DNA from: Ruditapes philippinarum | Taxonomy: Eukaryota | Reading direction: 5' to 3' | DNA length: 64,000 nucleotides | Assembly: GCF_026571515.1 (NCBI RefSeq) | Contig: NW_026864182.1 | Location: forward strand, 372,001-436,000 | Shown: one piece after another, positions 4,201 to 54,600 of the stretch | Position numbering within the stretch: position 1 is the first letter of the stretch | Layout: the number at the start of each line of letters is the position of its first letter | Program-made: the position numbers

Positions 4201-7200
4201 ACCAATCATTTTTTTATTTGCACTCGTGTAAATATGTATGTATAATAGTGAATGCAAAGTTTATTAAGTTACAGTGATTTTAAGTTTGTGGCCAGATTAG
4301 AAATATTATACGTAATATAACCGATACGATAATTGCGAGAAAAAAGTTGCTTTTTATATATATTTTCAATATGTTTTATATTTTACAGAAACTATATAAA
4401 AGAACAATGATCATATAATACATGTTTCATAATAATCGGAGTAAGATGTCACGGATTAAATCAGATTAATTAGAGAAATACCAACTTCAGAGACCAAACT
4501 ATGGATGTAAAATCAGCAAACAAGTCTCCGGAAATTAGGAAGCAACCAAAGCAGACAAACCAAAAAACCTTTTCTAAAGAAAGGCATACAAATCATACTC
4601 GTGTAAAGAATAATAAAAAAGCTTCAAAAGAAAGAACACCATGTGTGACCGGACAGCCTTCATTTATCAGAAGTGGGTCTACACAGACTTCACCTATCTC
4701 TGTGGATGCCGTTCCAATATCTTCTACTCCTACTGAAAATATAAACCCTGATATAAAACCTGCGACTACTGATGAATGCACATCAAGAAAACCACCAACT
4801 AAATGTATTCAACGAGAATTCACGTTTACGGGCTATGACATTATGTCCGACGGTTTGTTTATTTACTTTCTTCATTTACACATACCTTGTAGGAACATAA
4901 TTGTTTTTCTTAAAAATGATTAACAAACAAGTTGAAGACTACTGAAAATCCGACGCGAAGAATTAAAATTTACAGCCATATATGCTTATTTATTGCGAAA
5001 CAGCAATTTGTAGACATACAATTAAAAAAGTTTTTAAATCTGTATTTATCTATTGTTGTTTTTTTCAAAGTTGAGCCGAAAAAGGTGATTAAAGAAACTG
5101 CTTTACAGAAAAGAGATCGGGAGAATGTGCAACAGTATATTGCAGCATGCAAACAATTAGGTGTAGTACCATCTTCGTATGTTTCACGGCATATCAACGA
5201 CAAAAATCTGGTTATAAAAAGTCAACCTTTGGGTCAAAAAGGAGCACGGGCACTGTGTGTTTCTCTCGTGCATAATCACATCGTGGAAAAGCTTGACCTT
5301 GAGGAGAATGATATTGGCAGTGAAGGTGCTATAAGTGTTGCCGAAATGTTGGAAGAAAATGTTAACATATCAGAAGTTGTAAGTTCCCACTGTTTATTGT
5401 TTGAACGAAATGCTTCCTCAGATTTTATAGACGTGATTTGAAAAGTTTTATGAATTTATGTCGATGTAACGTAGTTCGTTATCTTGAAACTACAACTACT
5501 AAATTACCCTAAGCTGCATAGTTCATGCATAGTCCGGAATGAAGTGACGTAAAATATGAACATTTTCCTTGATAGCGTTGACCTTGTATTTTAAATGTTT
5601 TTGGTTTGTTTTGTTTTGTTTTGATTCTTCTATTCTAATTGGTGCCATATATATCCTATATTTTTCAATTTCCATGGAATATTTTATGGATGCCCAAACT
5701 TTATTTACGTTTATATTATCCATGTCAAAGTCGGAGATGTTTTATCAAACATTTAGTAGTTATGAGTTTACATAAAATTTTATCTTAATTACTACGATTG
5801 TCATTGTTACTTTCTTTTAAAAGCAAAGTCTAAATGATTGTCATTATTACTTTTTTAAAGCAAATTACACTAATAAAATTTATTTTCTATAACAAAAAAC
5901 ATAAAATGATAATTATAAAAATATATCAGAACATATCTTTTTAAGCGCCTAGCTGGAAACTTAATTGGACCACGAGGGATAGAAGCTCTGTCAAACTTGC
6001 TGAAAGGCGGACGGAAACTTTATTCTCTTGACGTTTCTGGTACATGTAGTATAAGTGATGTTAAACAAAATATAATATTCCCTAATTATTTTTGAAATGT
6101 ATAAAATTATATACAGTCAAGTGAGCGGTACATTTCAATGTTAAATGAACATTATTCATTTATATACAAAAATGTACATATACTTCCTTACTTATGTATT
6201 TCAATAAAAATCACAAAAGAGAAAAATTATCTTATAATGTACTTATTCATTTTGACAAAATCACGCAAAGATAAACTATCTTATGAATTATTGAACATAT
6301 CTTTTTTGAATAAAATCAATCATCTTTATCGAACTTTAGGAAGTGGGATAGACGATAACAACGCGAAAGTCCTAGCTGATTTGATAGAAGTAAGTATTGT
6401 TTTCATAACATTTGAACGGTAATCTTGGAATGAAAATGTTGAAATATATCTTTTGGTTTATATTTTCTATCTTTATTGATTATACATTGTTTACTTTTAA
6501 ACGACTGTAAGCTTAATGTGGCATTATTACTGTCTACAGAAAGGCGGCTCACTGAAAGAACTAAATATCAGTCATAATGGAGCAAGTGAAACCGGTGCTA
6601 TCGATATTGGACGTGCAATAGGTAAATTTTCAAAAGGAAAATCCACATGATACACTGTATATTTAATATATTTATAGTACATGTAGTTTAAAAACCTGAC
6701 AGCAATCATTCTTGACAAGTCTTTTTAGTGATCTTTTACAATGTGTGTTTGCTTTGTTGGGTTATGTCACACCAACACCGTAAATGTCATAATTTTGCGA
6801 CTCTCTAGCTTTACTGGTGGCGGGAGACATCTGGTGACCCTCTGTCCATTTTTTCGAAACCAGTGGGCATCTGAGTAGAACCACCGACGTTCCGTAAGCT
6901 AGTTGGATAAACTAATACCTATCTTCATGAAAAATTAGAATAAATGTAAACAATCTATGTACACTGTACACTTACTTCTTGAAGTCTCCAATATTTCAGA
7001 ACACATTTCTTATCAATGAAAATTTAATTGGATATCAAGTTAATTTATCAATATAAATATGTATGTTAAGTACATTTATCTGTACGTGTATCTGTTATAA
7101 TTATGATTTAAAGTAATTGTGCAGAATACTAATTTTCTACTGTAATCAGCAAGGAATGACACCTTGGAAGACCTGGACATGAGCTGGAATCATATCAGAG

Positions 7201-51600: not shown

Positions 51601-54600
51601 TCACTGCGGATCAGGGCAGTGAGTCACATTAATTTTACCAGAGCACAGCTCAGCCACCGCATCGTTCCTTGGCAGGCTGTCAAGCAGTTTACCTCACTTT
51701 CGCAAAGAACTGATAACATCTCTAAAAGCCAGAGCAGAGGTACAATGCAAATGACAGTAGAAAGGATTTCATAATCAATGACATTCATCGTCCGTGAAAC
51801 GAACACGGATCGCCCGATTCACAGTCCAATGCTTTACCTATTGAGCTAACCGGGCAGTGCTGATTTAAAGGAAAATACATAATATTACATGAAAATCTCT
51901 GAATACACGGACTTCCGTTTTTCACGTATGATAGATTGTATTTAAAATGACATACAAATTGTTGTACTTACCAGTAACGCAACGAATAAAGCCTTAATTT
52001 CCTTCTTACTGAGGTTGAAACCCTTCAAGGAAATACTTCCCTCGCCAAATTGTTTAGTCACGTTCTTTACAGGTATTTTCCCATACTTTTTACACAGTTT
52101 CTTGTACACAACAGCACCTCTGTTCAACTGATTAACATGGTCGTCTTTCGGTTTAGCAGTTTCTTCCTCATCTGTAATTGTTAAAAACTGTGAAGTTACA
52201 CAAGACATCTCTTTAATTGGTTGATTAATTGATTAAAATTCTAATCCGTACTCCGTACATGTTTTAATAAATAAAAACGTCTTGGAATATTCATAATTTT
52301 TCTTTATGAATTTAAGGTTACGCTTTTAACCTTTGTCACAACAAAGAGGGAAGATGTCATTAATATTCAGGTTATAAGTGAAGAATCAATATATTTCATA
52401 TTTTATGACAAAATGCAAATGTATGCAGATTTAATGGAATACAAAGAATAGGTATAAAGTTCAAAACTAAGTTTAGGAAAATGAAATTATACCCAGATTG
52501 TAAAACTTCATCGTTAAGATTACATTGGAGTAAAGATTTTTACTAGTAAGGAAAAATCAATTTGAACTGTTGTAAACAAATTGCTCCTTATTTGATAATG
52601 ACGTAAGTGTAGATCTATGTACAGATGAACGAACAGTCACTGTTACTTAATAATTAAAGCGCTATAAGTAAATTAAGTTTTATACTTTATATTTATATAA
52701 TTAATTATATAAATATTATTATTAAATACTATATTTTTATACTTATCGGGACATCCTTTAAATTTTATGAAATAAATTTAATTATAATTATTTAATAATA
52801 ATATTTATTCAAATGTAATTTAAGTTTCTATTCATAGTACTTCTACGGTTCATATTAAGTTAATTTGCTAGAGACACTTAAAGACAGTTCTTGTCATATT
52901 TATGTAGTTGCATTTTTTGAAAAGTTGTCACCTATTTATCTATTTTTTTCTTACCGTCAGTACTATCGAAGATGTAATCATCCTCTGGATCAAAATGCTT
53001 ATGACTGACCCTGCTGAGACGGGAACCAGTCACTCTTGCCGGAACGGTTAGTCCAAGATGATGGGCACCAGCGGTCTTGTGAGGTGCTTTCATGGGCGAC
53101 TCCACAGCAACACGGGTTGTCTTGCGGGAAAACAAAGGTCTCTTTGTATCCTCGTTAATCATTGTGCTCTAAAACAACATTAAATTGCTTGAAACTTTAT
53201 AAAACAGGTACTCTATTCTCTGTATTTAAATTTGATCAGTGTTAAATGTATTTTAATTAGGTTGAAAAAAAACACTTTATATAAAAAGTGAATGTCTGGA
53301 AACAATGTCGCATGTTTAGAGACATAGGATGGTTATTTGCCCCCGTGATATTATAGTATTGTACCAGTCTATATTGTATTGTTTTTGACATATTGGGACA
53401 ACCTCCGTAAATATAATTGAGCCGTGTCATGACAAAACCAACATAATGGGTCTGCGACCAGCATGGATCCAGACCAGCCTGCGCATCTGTGCAGTCTGAT
53501 CAGGATCCACGCTGTTCGCTATCAGTTTCTCTTCTTGTTATAGGGTTTGTAAGCGAACAGCATGGATCCTGATCAGACTGCGCGGATGCGCAGGCTGGTC
53601 TGGATGCATGCTGGTCGCAAACGCACTATGTTGGTTTTGTCGTGACACGGCTCATATGTAGATCTTACCCCTTCAGCTTCATTTTGATCAAATACAGTGC
53701 CGTCTAGTTTTTGACCCGCTAGACCACAAGCAGTGTTTCACTTCTATAAAGCAACGGGCATTTTGAGTTTGCATCCTATACGGAAAAGCTTACCTTTTGC
53801 AGCTTTGTTTGCACTTCGTACACTTAAGTTAACAGTCTTAGCAGGAAGTTTAGATTAAGAAAAAAGTGAAACAGTCGTGTCTCATAAAATGTATACTATA
53901 AGAACTTTTTAAGTCTTGTAAAAATATAAAATATAAACAACTTAAATATGATCATACATTTATGACACTGATATAGCACGAGTTGTCCATGTTGAATAAA
54001 ACTGTTCATAACTCTAATATGTACTTAAGATTATGAAAATAAAATAGCAGAAAAAAATCGCTATACATAAGAATACTGAATAAGTATATACCTTTTATTT
54101 TTAAACTCCGATTATAAATTTATCATGAACACACTGGGAGCATTTTAAAAATATCAACACAAGTACATTTTTTGAGTCCGATGACACTGTCTAATAAGTT
54201 CACAATCTGCCATATTATTATGTTATTATTGAGACCACTTTATCATTTTGTCGTGAAAGCTGGTAACCGTATCACCTGAACTACGATTAAGGAGCTAATC
54301 ATGCCACGGTCTATCATTTCCGATACCTTACCGGTACAAAACAAGATTATCCGGATTTTCTTTATCCGAATTCACTAATCTCATCGGGTTAGAATTGTTG
54401 CACATTGATTGTAAATATTTGGCAAATTTTTTATAATTGTTGCATAATGTTGATTTTCTATCCGAACTGTTGCATAAAATTCATCTCAAGCTGCAATAAT
54501 TTGACCTAGAAGAATATTTTACCATAAATTATCTTACCGAAAGAGATAGCTATCGAAATCTGCAGATTTTCTTTTTCACAAATGATATCTTTTATCTTAC

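What the first reader, a model, noticed from the sequence alone, without database searches (positions are those of the whole stretch)
4501..53162. Cluster of three LRR-EF-hand (LRRC74-like) paralogs around the dynein assembly factor DNAAF6
Seen in sequence: four consecutive genes are LRRC74-like(+), DNAAF6(+), LRRC74-like(-), LRRC74-like(-). Established: DNAAF6/PIH1D3 is needed for cytoplasmic pre-assembly of axonemal dynein, and vertebrate LRRC74 genes are poorly characterised and associated with testis and ciliated cells. Inference: this may be a co-regulated cilia/sperm-motility locus in which an expanded set of Ca2+-sensing LRR scaffolds acts with, or is co-expressed with, dynein assembly. 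That would matter in a filter feeder with Ca2+-controlled gill cilia.
[Added by the scan's program, not by the reader: the finding's places include an assembly gap (unread letters, written N; its length is only estimated) at 28370 to 28529. Whether the letters on both sides are continuous or in frame is not known: test that first.]
Basis: partly seen in the sequence, partly recalled or inferred. Interest (0 to 1): 0.65.

Follow-up and report, generated by a model that had tools for sequence, protein, structure and literature searches.

The report
Three LRRC74 paralogs flanking clam DNAAF6
A 50-kb stretch of Manila clam DNA holds three related genes for calcium-binding leucine-rich-repeat proteins of the ciliary beat-regulating complex beside a dynein-assembly gene; the genes are real and already machine-annotated, but nothing here shows that they work together.

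Summary
The window is Ruditapes philippinarum DNA. It carries, in order:
- A: LRRC74-like, +, 4501-9625
- B: DNAAF6/PIH1D3, +, 18122-21916
- C: LRRC74-like, -, 32300-23535
- D: LRRC74-like, -, 53162-38843

No other Pfam-detectable gene lies between them.

The N gap (28370-28529) sits in an intron of C with GT and AG ends, and no exon is missing.

Two LRR exons of A lie in an 0.85-kb homopolymer-inflated patch and cannot be read.

The closest solved structure for all three proteins is chain Km of PDB 9FQR, the bovine sperm axoneme. Leung et al. 2025 place LRRC74A in the N-DRC distal lobe of that model. So LRRC74 is no longer "poorly characterised".

The clam proteins keep two EF-hand loops with calcium-binding residues, as do 52 of 67 related cluster representatives.

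A and C are sister paralogs. D is an older lineage shared with a gastropod.

Co-regulation with DNAAF6, or joint action with it, was not shown. No X-box motif was found, and synteny could be checked only coarsely. This is an ordinary, plausible cilia-gene neighbourhood.

The parts
4501..9625 (+). Gene A, LRRC74-like with an EF-hand pair. Readable exons, approximately: 4501-4851, 5070-5408, 5946-6044, 6350-6401, 6552-6620, 7149-7240, 8455-8727, 9026-9133, 9506-9622. Stop at 9623-9625.
   Evidence: tblastn of Mercenaria P0004, P0002 and Mactra P0003. Best hit is P0004 for 6 of 6 exons. LRR_6 and EF-hand_7 hits. Exon 2 hits 9fqr_Km best, E 2.6e-22.
7440..8300 (.). Homopolymer-inflated patch covering two LRR exons of gene A (remnants at about 7456-7650 and 8000-8095) and the intron between them. 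The exons read with stops and frame changes.
   Evidence: The fraction of bases in runs of 3 or more is 0.45-0.68 here, against a window mean of 0.25 (sd 0.07). All 7 windows above 0.5 start between 7400 and 8200. After homopolymer compression the two exons of gene C align here with scores of 40 and 46, against shuffle means of 20 and 17. Translations, raw letters.
18122..21916 (+). Gene B, DNAAF6/PIH1D3. Six exons, approximately: 18122-18211, 18564-18647, 19029-19121, 19719-19820, 20647-20727, 21791-21913. Stop at 21914-21916.
   Evidence: tblastn of P0014, P0016 (Mya 'DAAF6-like'), P0019 (Mactra 'pih1d3') and P0023 (Haliotis) covers residues 1-190 in order. PIH1_CS on the last exon at E 1.2e-4, and on residues 86-180 of the homologues at about 50 bits.
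23535..32300 (-). Gene C, LRRC74-like with an EF-hand pair, eleven exons, approximately: 32300-31914, 30443-30138, 29155-29057, 28633-28584, 28236-28155, 27689-27600, 27215-27012, 26726-26631, 26310-26041, 25603-25517, 23660-23538. Stop at 23537-23535.
   Evidence: 100% match of exon 2 to NCBI 'LRRC74A-like isoform X2 [Ruditapes philippinarum]'. Exon maps. Pfam. Exon 2 hits 9fqr_Km at E 2.6e-29.
28370..28529 (.). Assembly gap (N), inside intron 4 of gene C.
   Evidence: Donor GT at 28583-28582 and acceptor AG at 28238-28237. The flanking exons match adjacent residues of Mercenaria P0002: q261-284, then up to q305.
38843..53162 (-). Gene D, divergent LRRC74-like with an EF-hand pair. Exons, approximately: 53162-52960, 52175-51972, 49991-49959, 49625-49509, 48818-48729, 47071-47018, 46353-46273, 45944-45858, 45259-45059, 44121-44014, 43416-43156, 42740-42655, cassette 42107-42039, 39011-38846. 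Stop at 38845-38843.
   Evidence: 100% match to NCBI 'LRRC74B-like isoform X2 [Ruditapes philippinarum]'. Maps with Mercenaria P0007, P0008 and Nucella P0012. Pfam. The LRR exon hits 9fqr_Km at E 1.4e-19.
42039..42107 (-). 69-nt in-frame cassette exon of gene D. It lies between loop positions 11 and 12 of EF-hand 2.
   Evidence: AG and GT ends read. The exon is present in Mercenaria P0007 (residues 507-532) and absent from Ruditapes isoform X2, P0006.
63766..63999 (+). Exon of a MIEAP/SPATA18-like gene that runs off the right end of the window. It is the next gene beyond D, and it is not part of the original finding.
   Evidence: Pfam MIEAP PF16026, E 1.2e-10, 42.1 bits against a cut-off of 27.

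Best explanation
**What is there.** The region holds three genes of the LRRC74 family and one DNAAF6 gene of the clam Ruditapes philippinarum.

**The LRRC74-like proteins.** Each has three parts:
- a disordered N-terminal arm of about 120 residues;
- a horseshoe of about ten ribonuclease-inhibitor-type leucine-rich repeats;
- a C-terminal pair of EF-hands whose loops carry the usual Ca2+ ligands.

[quoted passage not shown] By homology, the clam proteins are most likely structural subunits of the same part of the axoneme. Their EF-hands would let Ca2+ change how that lobe is held. The three copies probably serve different cilia (sperm, gill, larval) or different Ca2+ responses.

**Origin of the copies.** D split from the A/C lineage before bivalves and gastropods separated. 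A and C arose later and now lie in opposite orientation on either side of DNAAF6.

**DNAAF6.** It is the cytoplasmic co-chaperone for pre-assembly of dynein arms. Its place in the cluster is best read as a neighbourhood of genes expressed in ciliated cells, or as chance. It is not a physical or pathway partnership.

**Shown versus inferred.**
- Shown: gene structures, family membership, EF-hand loop residues, paralogue relationships.
- Inferred: N-DRC location, Ca2+ binding, division of labour among the copies.
For: **Species and names.**

**Gene maps.**

**Sequence search against solved structures.**
- Mercenaria orthologue of C (P0002): best hit 9fqr_Km at E 9.9e-63, over query residues 146-518 and chain residues 65-433. 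The next hit is at 1.1e-29.
- Orthologue of D (P0007): 9fqr_Km at 6.5e-36, next hit at 5.2e-23.
- Window exons alone: 3 of 5 hit 9fqr_Km best, at collinear positions.
- The other two exons: one hit only a MACF1 EF-hand at E 0.002, and one hit nothing.

**Fold.**
- The AF2 model of P0002 has mean pLDDT 81.9, with the LRR and EF-hand parts mostly above 90.
- Foldseek ranks 9fqr_Km first at E 3e-26, with TM-score 0.80 by target length. The second hit is at 1e-16.

**Literature.**
- 9FQR is the bovine sperm 96-nm repeat, and LRRC74A is assigned there to the N-DRC distal lobe (passages of PMC11779644).
- An annelid LRRC74A is the top hub gene of a module correlated with telotroch cilia (passages of PMC10380512).

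**EF-hand loops.**
- Acidic or polar residues occupy loop positions 1, 3, 5 and 12 in both loops of A, C and D. This was read. For EF-hand 2, position 12 lies in the next exon.
- 60 of 67 related representatives keep loop 1, 55 of 67 keep loop 2, and 52 of 67 keep both.

**Tree.** A is sister to the C clade with support 0.999. The D clade, which includes Nucella, has support 1.0.
Against: - The tool's table labels 9fqr_Km 'Tubulin alpha-3 chain'. I infer that this 473-residue LRR chain is LRRC74A from the paper and from the NCBI names. I did not check the entry itself.
- For D the margin over other axonemal LRR proteins is smaller. At exon level it is 1.4e-19 against 5.3e-18.
- Location in the bovine sperm axoneme does not prove location in clam cilia, especially for three paralogues.
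- EF-hand 1 has Phe, Met or Asn where Gly is usual at loop position 6. Ca2+ binding is untested.
- The aligned loop 1 of the bovine chain lacks the ligand pattern, so the solved structure says nothing about a Ca2+ response.
- No expression, proteome or binding data were available.
- Gene A cannot be read through two exons.
Confidence: 0.6

Rival explanations
1. The four genes form a co-regulated cilia and sperm-motility locus kept together by selection. The LRR-EF-hand proteins act with DNAAF6 or the dynein pre-assembly machinery.
For: - All four genes belong to motile-cilia families.
- The next gene to the right is MIEAP/SPATA18-like. Mouse Spata18 is listed among high-confidence RFX targets involved in ciliogenesis (passage of PMC7498320).
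- In Mactra antiquata the pih1d3 protein and a C-type LRR protein are recorded on contigs of identical length, 45,786,304 bases. This is consistent with one chromosome.
Against: - No strict X-box anywhere in the window: 0 sites against 0.3 expected.
- The two looser C. elegans-type sites (0.7 expected) are not within 2 kb upstream of any of the four start codons.
- No match to the palindromic X-box with up to 3 mismatches, against 1.48 expected.
- No pair of the four genes is divergently transcribed.
- By homology the LRR proteins are built into the axoneme, while DNAAF6 works in the cytoplasm on dynein arms. The N-DRC is not a dynein arm.
- Sharing a chromosome is expected from conserved bivalve macrosynteny and says nothing about adjacency.
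- From recall, not from any call: human DNAAF6, LRRC74A and LRRC74B lie on three different chromosomes.
Confidence: 0.2
2. The clam LRR-EF-hand proteins share the fold and ancestry of LRRC74A but are not N-DRC subunits. They would be Ca2+-regulated ribonuclease-inhibitor-type scaffolds elsewhere in the axoneme or in the cytoplasm. D is the most likely to have moved to another role.
For: - Many different axonemal LRR proteins come next in the lists: LRRC34, DRC5/TCTE1, radial spoke protein 15, and trypanosomatid and Tetrahymena chains.
- D is only 26-60% identical to C exon by exon and forms a separate deep clade.
- The EF-hand exon of A resembles the EF-hand of the cytoskeletal linker MACF1.
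Against: - 9fqr_Km is the best hit by 33 orders of magnitude for the C orthologue and by 13 for the D orthologue. The alignments run collinearly from the N-terminal cap past the last repeat into the EF-hand 1 region.
- It is also the best structural match.
Confidence: 0.15
3. Gene A is a decaying pseudogene. Its two unreadable LRR exons are truly broken, so only two paralogues are functional.
For: - Stops and frame changes appear in the remnants of both exons.
- No Ruditapes protein for gene A appeared among the hits. That search used an exon of C and was word-based, so this is weak evidence.
Against: - The damage is confined to one 0.85-kb patch. Exon and intron alike are inflated with homopolymer runs, and this happens nowhere else in the 64 kb. 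That looks like an unpolished long-read fill, not like mutation.
- The nine other exons are open and 64-81% identical to the Mercenaria orthologue in the six tested.
Confidence: 0.12

Closest known systems
LRRC74A, N-DRC distal-lobe subunit of mammalian sperm axonemes (PDB 9FQR chain Km; Leung et al., Nature 2025, PMC11779644)
   Same: - N-terminal cap plus about ten ribonuclease-inhibitor-type repeats and a helical C-terminal region.
- Collinear alignment over about 370 residues at about 30% identity.
- Best sequence match and best fold match.
   Different: - The clam proteins are about 100 residues longer (557-593 in the public models, against 473).
- They have a long disordered N-terminal arm.
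- They have two EF-hand loops with the Ca2+ ligand pattern. In the aligned bovine loop 1 that pattern is lost.
- The clam has three copies.
Other axonemal ribonuclease-inhibitor-type LRR proteins: LRRC34, DRC5/TCTE1, radial spoke protein 15
   Same: Same repeat type and horseshoe fold, and all were built into axoneme structures.
   Different: - Much weaker matches: 1e-25 or worse against 1e-62 for the C orthologue.
- Only the LRR part of the query (within residues 185-408) aligned to them.
DNAAF6 / PIH1D3, dynein axonemal assembly factor
   Same: - About 190 residues.
- PIH1 CS-like domain over the C-terminal half.
- 80-98% identity in the last exon to molluscan proteins of that name, or to unnamed ones of the same length.
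   Different: Nothing unusual was seen. No solved structure matched by sequence.
EF-hand proteins of the N-DRC: ANKEF1 in mammals (PMC11779644). DRC8 in Chlamydomonas is recalled, not from any call.
   Same: A Ca2+-binding type of domain placed in the N-DRC distal lobe (for ANKEF1).
   Different: In the clam the EF-hand pair is fused to the LRRC74 horseshoe rather than to ankyrin repeats or standing alone. Whether either binds Ca2+ in place is not known to me.

Membership tests
LRRC74 (LRRC74A/B) | Run of ribonuclease-inhibitor-type leucine-rich repeats (Pfam LRR_6) | tested here: met
   - LRR_6 reaches its cut-off on 2 exons of A, 3 of C and 2 of D.
- It scores 56-104 bits on the public whole proteins.
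- The model shows alternating strand and helix over residues 173-458.
LRRC74 (LRRC74A/B) | Closer to LRRC74A than to any other LRR protein, collinear over cap, repeats and C-terminal region | tested here: met
   - 9fqr_Km is first. The margin is wide for A and C and narrower for D.
- Caveat: the chain's identity as LRRC74A is inferred.
- A reverse search from the mammalian protein into the clam proteome was not possible.
LRRC74 (LRRC74A/B) | Location in the N-DRC distal lobe of the axoneme | not testable with these tools
   This needs axoneme proteomics or cryo-EM of clam cilia.
EF-hand Ca2+-binding pair | Two helix-loop-helix motifs whose 12-residue loops have Asp at position 1, Asp/Asn/Ser at 3 and 5, and Glu at 12 | tested here: met
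   - Loops were read in the exon translations of A, C and D and across the last splice site of D.
- EF-hand_7 passes its cut-off on P0001, P0002, P0004, P0006, P0007 and P0012. On single exons it falls below cut-off.
- Ca2+ binding itself was not tested.
DNAAF6 / PIH1D3 | Small protein of about 190-215 residues with a C-terminal PIH1 CS-like domain and no other domain | tested here: met
   - Six exons cover residues 1-190 of named homologues.
- PIH1_CS covers residues 86-180 of those homologues at 50-52 bits.
- The window's last exon alone scores 22.9 bits against a cut-off of 23.3.
DNAAF6 / PIH1D3 | Works with HSP90 and DNAAF2/DNAAF4 in dynein arm pre-assembly | not testable with these tools
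   Known for vertebrates (abstract of PMC5309803). Not examined for the clam.
Co-regulated ciliary gene cluster (RFX/FOXJ1 regulon) | X-box motif near the promoters of the member genes | tested here: not met
   - 0 strict X-box sites in 64 kb.
- 2 looser sites, at 39147-39160 and 59183-59196, neither within 2 kb upstream of a start codon.
- 0 matches to the palindromic consensus with up to 3 mismatches.
- This negative is weak: the transcription start sites are unknown and the consensus patterns were recalled.

The most novel reading that the evidence does not exclude
The EF-hand-bearing form is the ancestral and usual form of LRRC74. It makes the N-DRC distal lobe a direct Ca2+ sensor in most animals, and the bovine protein (at least in loop 1) has lost this.

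Bivalve gill cilia stop or change beat with Ca2+. Bivalves would keep three such sensors for different cilia. One of them (D) would have a splice-controlled switch that removes the Glu at position 12 of EF-hand 2.

The block A, DNAAF6, C, D and SPATA18-like would be a conserved chromatin neighbourhood of genes switched on together in ciliated cells.
Probability: 0.15. Interest if true: 0.6.

Novelty: new member of a known kind. Interest (0 to 1): 0.3.

Why it matters
How Ca2+ changes or arrests ciliary beating in bivalve gills is an old question, and the N-DRC is one place where such control could act.

If the clam LRRC74 proteins sit where bovine LRRC74A sits, their intact EF-hands give a concrete, testable candidate for a Ca2+ sensor on the link between doublets. 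The three copies give a handle on differences between types of cilia.

The linkage to DNAAF6 matters only if it proves conserved and co-expressed. As it stands it is a tidy annotation, not a discovery.

For users of this assembly, two practical points matter more:
- the N gap is harmless to the reading frame of gene C;
- the stretch 7.4-8.3 kb is unreliable and breaks the model of gene A.

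Tried and rejected
**Searches that gave nothing**
- X-box and FOXJ1 motif scans gave nothing above chance.
- tRNA and Rfam scans gave only a borderline tRNA-like match in an intron of D.
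- Pfam on 15 larger ORFs outside the genes gave only a sub-threshold DUF508 match.
- Pfam on 129 further ORFs gave only one exon of D and the MIEAP exon.
- DNAAF6 has no sequence match among solved structures.
- Exon 2 of D has none either.

**Steps that failed**
- The first Pfam call failed on a reference that contained stop codons. I corrected the coordinates.
- The first mafft run timed out. I repeated it with faster settings.

- I did not send a complex prediction of an LRRC74-like protein with DNAAF6. I do not claim that they bind, and adjacency alone is not reason enough.
Window sequence was searched exon by exon. Full-length comparisons used public proteins returned by the search tools.

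**Ideas rejected**
- That the gap hides an exon of C: rejected.
- That ORF 16966-17268 is a 5' exon of DNAAF6: rejected because the homologues start at 18122.

Full report
**Source and method**

The window is AT-rich eukaryotic DNA. [quoted passage not shown] The window is therefore Manila clam DNA, not human.

Window sequence was searched exon by exon. Whole-protein comparisons used public proteins that the search tools returned, mainly the orthologues from the clam Mercenaria mercenaria.

**The assembly gap, tested first**

- The gap at 28370-28529 lies in gene C, on the minus strand.
- Read on that strand, the exon before it ends at 28584 and is followed by GT. The exon after it starts at 28236 and is preceded by AG.
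- The two exons match adjacent residues of the Mercenaria orthologue with none left over.
- So the gap is intronic. Its unknown length cannot affect the frame, and no coding sequence is missing.

**The four genes**

tblastn of orthologues on the window gives:

| Gene | Strand | Start codon | Stop codon | Exons |
|---|---|---|---|---|
| A | + | 4501 | 9623-9625 | 11 expected, 9 readable |
| B | + | 18122 | 21914-21916 | 6 |
| C | - | 32300 | 23537-23535 | 11 |
| D | - | 53162 | 38845-38843 | 13 plus one cassette exon |

- The finding's end points (4501 and 53162) are the start codons of A and D.
- B and C converge, with their stop codons 1.6 kb apart.
- A is 8.5 kb upstream of B. D follows C after 6.5 kb on the same strand.
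- Pfam found nothing else between them. Of 129 further ORFs of 62 residues or more, 2 gave hits: one exon of D, and a MIEAP exon at the right edge.

**Gene B is DNAAF6**

- Its last exon found 16 proteins among 16 candidates. The named ones are 'DAAF6-like' (Mya arenaria), 'pih1d3' (Mactra antiquata) and 'dynein axonemal assembly factor 6-like' (Saccostrea, Haliotis, Gigantopelta), at 80-90% identity.
- Its six exons cover residues 1-190 of these proteins in order.
- The PIH1 CS-like domain covers residues 86-180 of the homologues at about 50 bits.
- The last exon of the window alone scores 22.9 bits, just under the cut-off of 23.3.
- The abstract of PMC5309803 describes PIH1D3 as a cytoplasmic factor of early axonemal dynein assembly.

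**Genes A, C and D are LRRC74-like with an EF-hand pair**

- NCBI names C 'LRRC74A-like' and D 'LRRC74B-like'.
- All 6 tested exons of A hit the Mercenaria 'LRRC74B-like' protein P0004 best, at 64-81% identity.
- Of 38 exon pieces scanned with Pfam, LRR_6 reached its cut-off on 7.
- EF-hand models matched 5 exon pieces, all below cut-off. They passed on all six public whole proteins.

**Closest solved structure**

- The Mercenaria orthologue of C hits chain Km of 9FQR at E 9.9e-63, over residues 146-518. The next hit is at 1.1e-29.
- The orthologue of D hits the same chain at 6.5e-36, against 5.2e-23 for the next.
- Among five single window exons, three hit 9fqr_Km best at collinear positions.
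- Of the other two, one hit only the EF-hand of MACF1 and one hit nothing.
- An AlphaFold2 model of the Mercenaria protein has mean pLDDT 81.9. Residues 1-118 are disordered. The LRR horseshoe and the EF-hand helices are mostly above 90.
- That model was built on 63 aligned sequences. I left out 10 of the 67 short representatives by eye, mostly those with degenerate loops, and also the window's own NCBI models.
- Foldseek ranks 9fqr_Km first for this model (E 3e-26, TM-score 0.80 by target length), ahead of a Leishmania axonemal LRR protein (1e-16) and ribonuclease inhibitor.

**What that chain is**

- Passages of PMC11779644 state that 9FQR is the 96-nm repeat of bovine sperm doublets. [quoted passage not shown]
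- The search tool labels chain Km 'Tubulin alpha-3 chain'. That cannot be right for a 473-residue LRR chain. I take the chain to be LRRC74A, but this is an inference.
- Supplementary Table 6 of that paper may say whether LRRC74A is sperm-specific. I could not see it.
- In the annelid Urechis, an LRRC74A gene is the top hub gene of a co-expression module correlated with telotroch cilia (passages of PMC10380512).

**EF-hands**

- In A, C and D both loops have Asp at position 1, Asp or Asn at 3, Ser or Asp at 5, and Glu at 12 (for the last position of loop 2).
- Loop 1 lacks the usual Gly at position 6.
- A full scan of 1.84 billion representatives found 1,399 proteins at E 1e-30 or better.
- Of the best 150, I set aside 83 as long multi-repeat proteins. 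Of the 67 with 800 residues or fewer, 60 keep the ligand pattern in loop 1, 55 in loop 2, 52 in both and 4 in neither.
- The library gives no names, so I cannot say which organisms these are.
- In the bovine chain, the segment aligned to loop 1 has lost the pattern.
- The EF-hand-bearing form therefore looks like the common one, and the bovine form looks reduced.
- I found no paper that discusses LRRC74 together with EF-hands. Five papers contain both words, none in the title or abstract.

**History of the copies**

- I built a FastTree of the 67 short representatives plus 8 named or mapped proteins.
- A's orthologue is sister to the C clade (Ruditapes, Mercenaria, Mactra and one representative), with support 0.999.
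- D falls with Mercenaria, an unnamed protein and the gastropod Nucella lapillus, with support 1.0. Many other representatives lie between the two groups.
- The tree is midpoint-rooted and most tips are unnamed.
- The reading is one old split (D against A/C, before the bivalve-gastropod split) and a later duplication. That duplication left A and C in opposite orientation around DNAAF6.

**Gene A is not fully readable**

- Between 7440 and 8300 the sequence is inflated with homopolymer runs.
- All seven 200-base windows in which more than half the bases lie in runs of 3 or more start between 7400 and 8200.
- The patch holds recognisable remnants of the two LRR exons expected there, but with stops and frame changes.
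- After homopolymer compression the remnants align to the exons of C well above shuffled controls.
- Exon and intron are affected alike, and the nine other exons are open. I read this as an unpolished fill in the assembly rather than gene decay. Only re-sequencing can decide.

**Is it a functional cluster?**

- By homology, all four genes, and the MIEAP/SPATA18-like neighbour, belong to families linked to motile cilia. Mouse Spata18 is listed among RFX targets in PMC7498320.
- I found no X-box near any start codon.
- The only cross-species hint is that the Mactra pih1d3 and LRR proteins are recorded on contigs of equal length. The three Mercenaria LRR proteins likewise share one contig length, 97,832,188. 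This shows at most shared chromosomes.
- Of 54 papers holding two of the terms LRRC74, PIH1D3 and DNAAF6, the 10 listed hold no LRRC74. I did not see the other 44.
- Mechanistically, a built-in N-DRC subunit and a cytoplasmic dynein-arm chaperone have no evident direct link.

**Verdict**

- The genes are new members of known families in a plausible cilia-gene neighbourhood.
- The most useful lead is the Ca2+-competent EF-hand pair on an N-DRC-type protein.

Noticed in passing
window 42039-42107 (-), with 42655-42740 and 38846-39011: Gene D has a 69-nt in-frame cassette exon with AG and GT ends, placed exactly between positions 11 and 12 of the EF-hand 2 loop. When it is skipped (Ruditapes isoform X2, P0006), position 12 is the usual Glu. 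When it is included (Mercenaria P0007), position 12 becomes Leu and 23 residues interrupt the exit helix. This may be a splice switch for Ca2+ binding.
   Followed up: partly
window 7440-8300: This is the only stretch of the window where more than half the bases lie in runs of 3 or more. It looks like an unpolished long-read fill, and it garbles two exons of gene A.
   Followed up: yes
window 63766-63999 (+); probable further exons from about 61.5 kb: A MIEAP/SPATA18-like gene (Pfam MIEAP, E 1.2e-10) runs off the right end of the window, divergent from gene D. Mouse Spata18 is listed as an RFX target involved in ciliogenesis (PMC7498320). That makes a fifth cilia-linked gene in a row.
   Followed up: partly
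window 59183-59196: A palindrome-like match to the looser C. elegans-type X-box consensus lies between gene D and the MIEAP-like gene. It is about 6 kb upstream of D's start codon. Two such sites occur in the window against 0.7 expected, so it may be chance.
   Followed up: no
window about 11480-16000: Two tandem copies of a unit of about 2.49 kb, 96-100% identical, lie in the A-B intergenic region. They have no Pfam match. This is either a real recent duplication or an assembly duplication.
   Followed up: partly
window 16966-17268 (+): A 101-residue ORF lies 0.85 kb upstream of DNAAF6. It has no Pfam match. The atlas gave only weak leads (score 0.86) to C17orf113, FAM200B and GT2D2 zinc-finger clusters. 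It may be a fragment of a transposase-derived gene.
   Followed up: partly
window 51790-51850 (-): A borderline Rfam tRNA match (29.6 bits against a cut-off of 29, E 0.04) lies in an intron of gene D. ARAGORN found no tRNA. It may be a tRNA-derived repeat.
   Followed up: no
window 1547-1876 (-): A 110-residue ORF resembles, from recall only, the C-terminal tail of a retrotransposon ORF common in molluscs. It has no Pfam match.
   Followed up: no
window 4810-4851 (+) and 31914-31955 (-): The otherwise dissimilar, disordered first exons of A and C end in the same short motif (REFTFTGYDIM). The family consensus keeps a Tyr-Asp at this place. It may be a docking motif just before the LRR cap.
   Followed up: no
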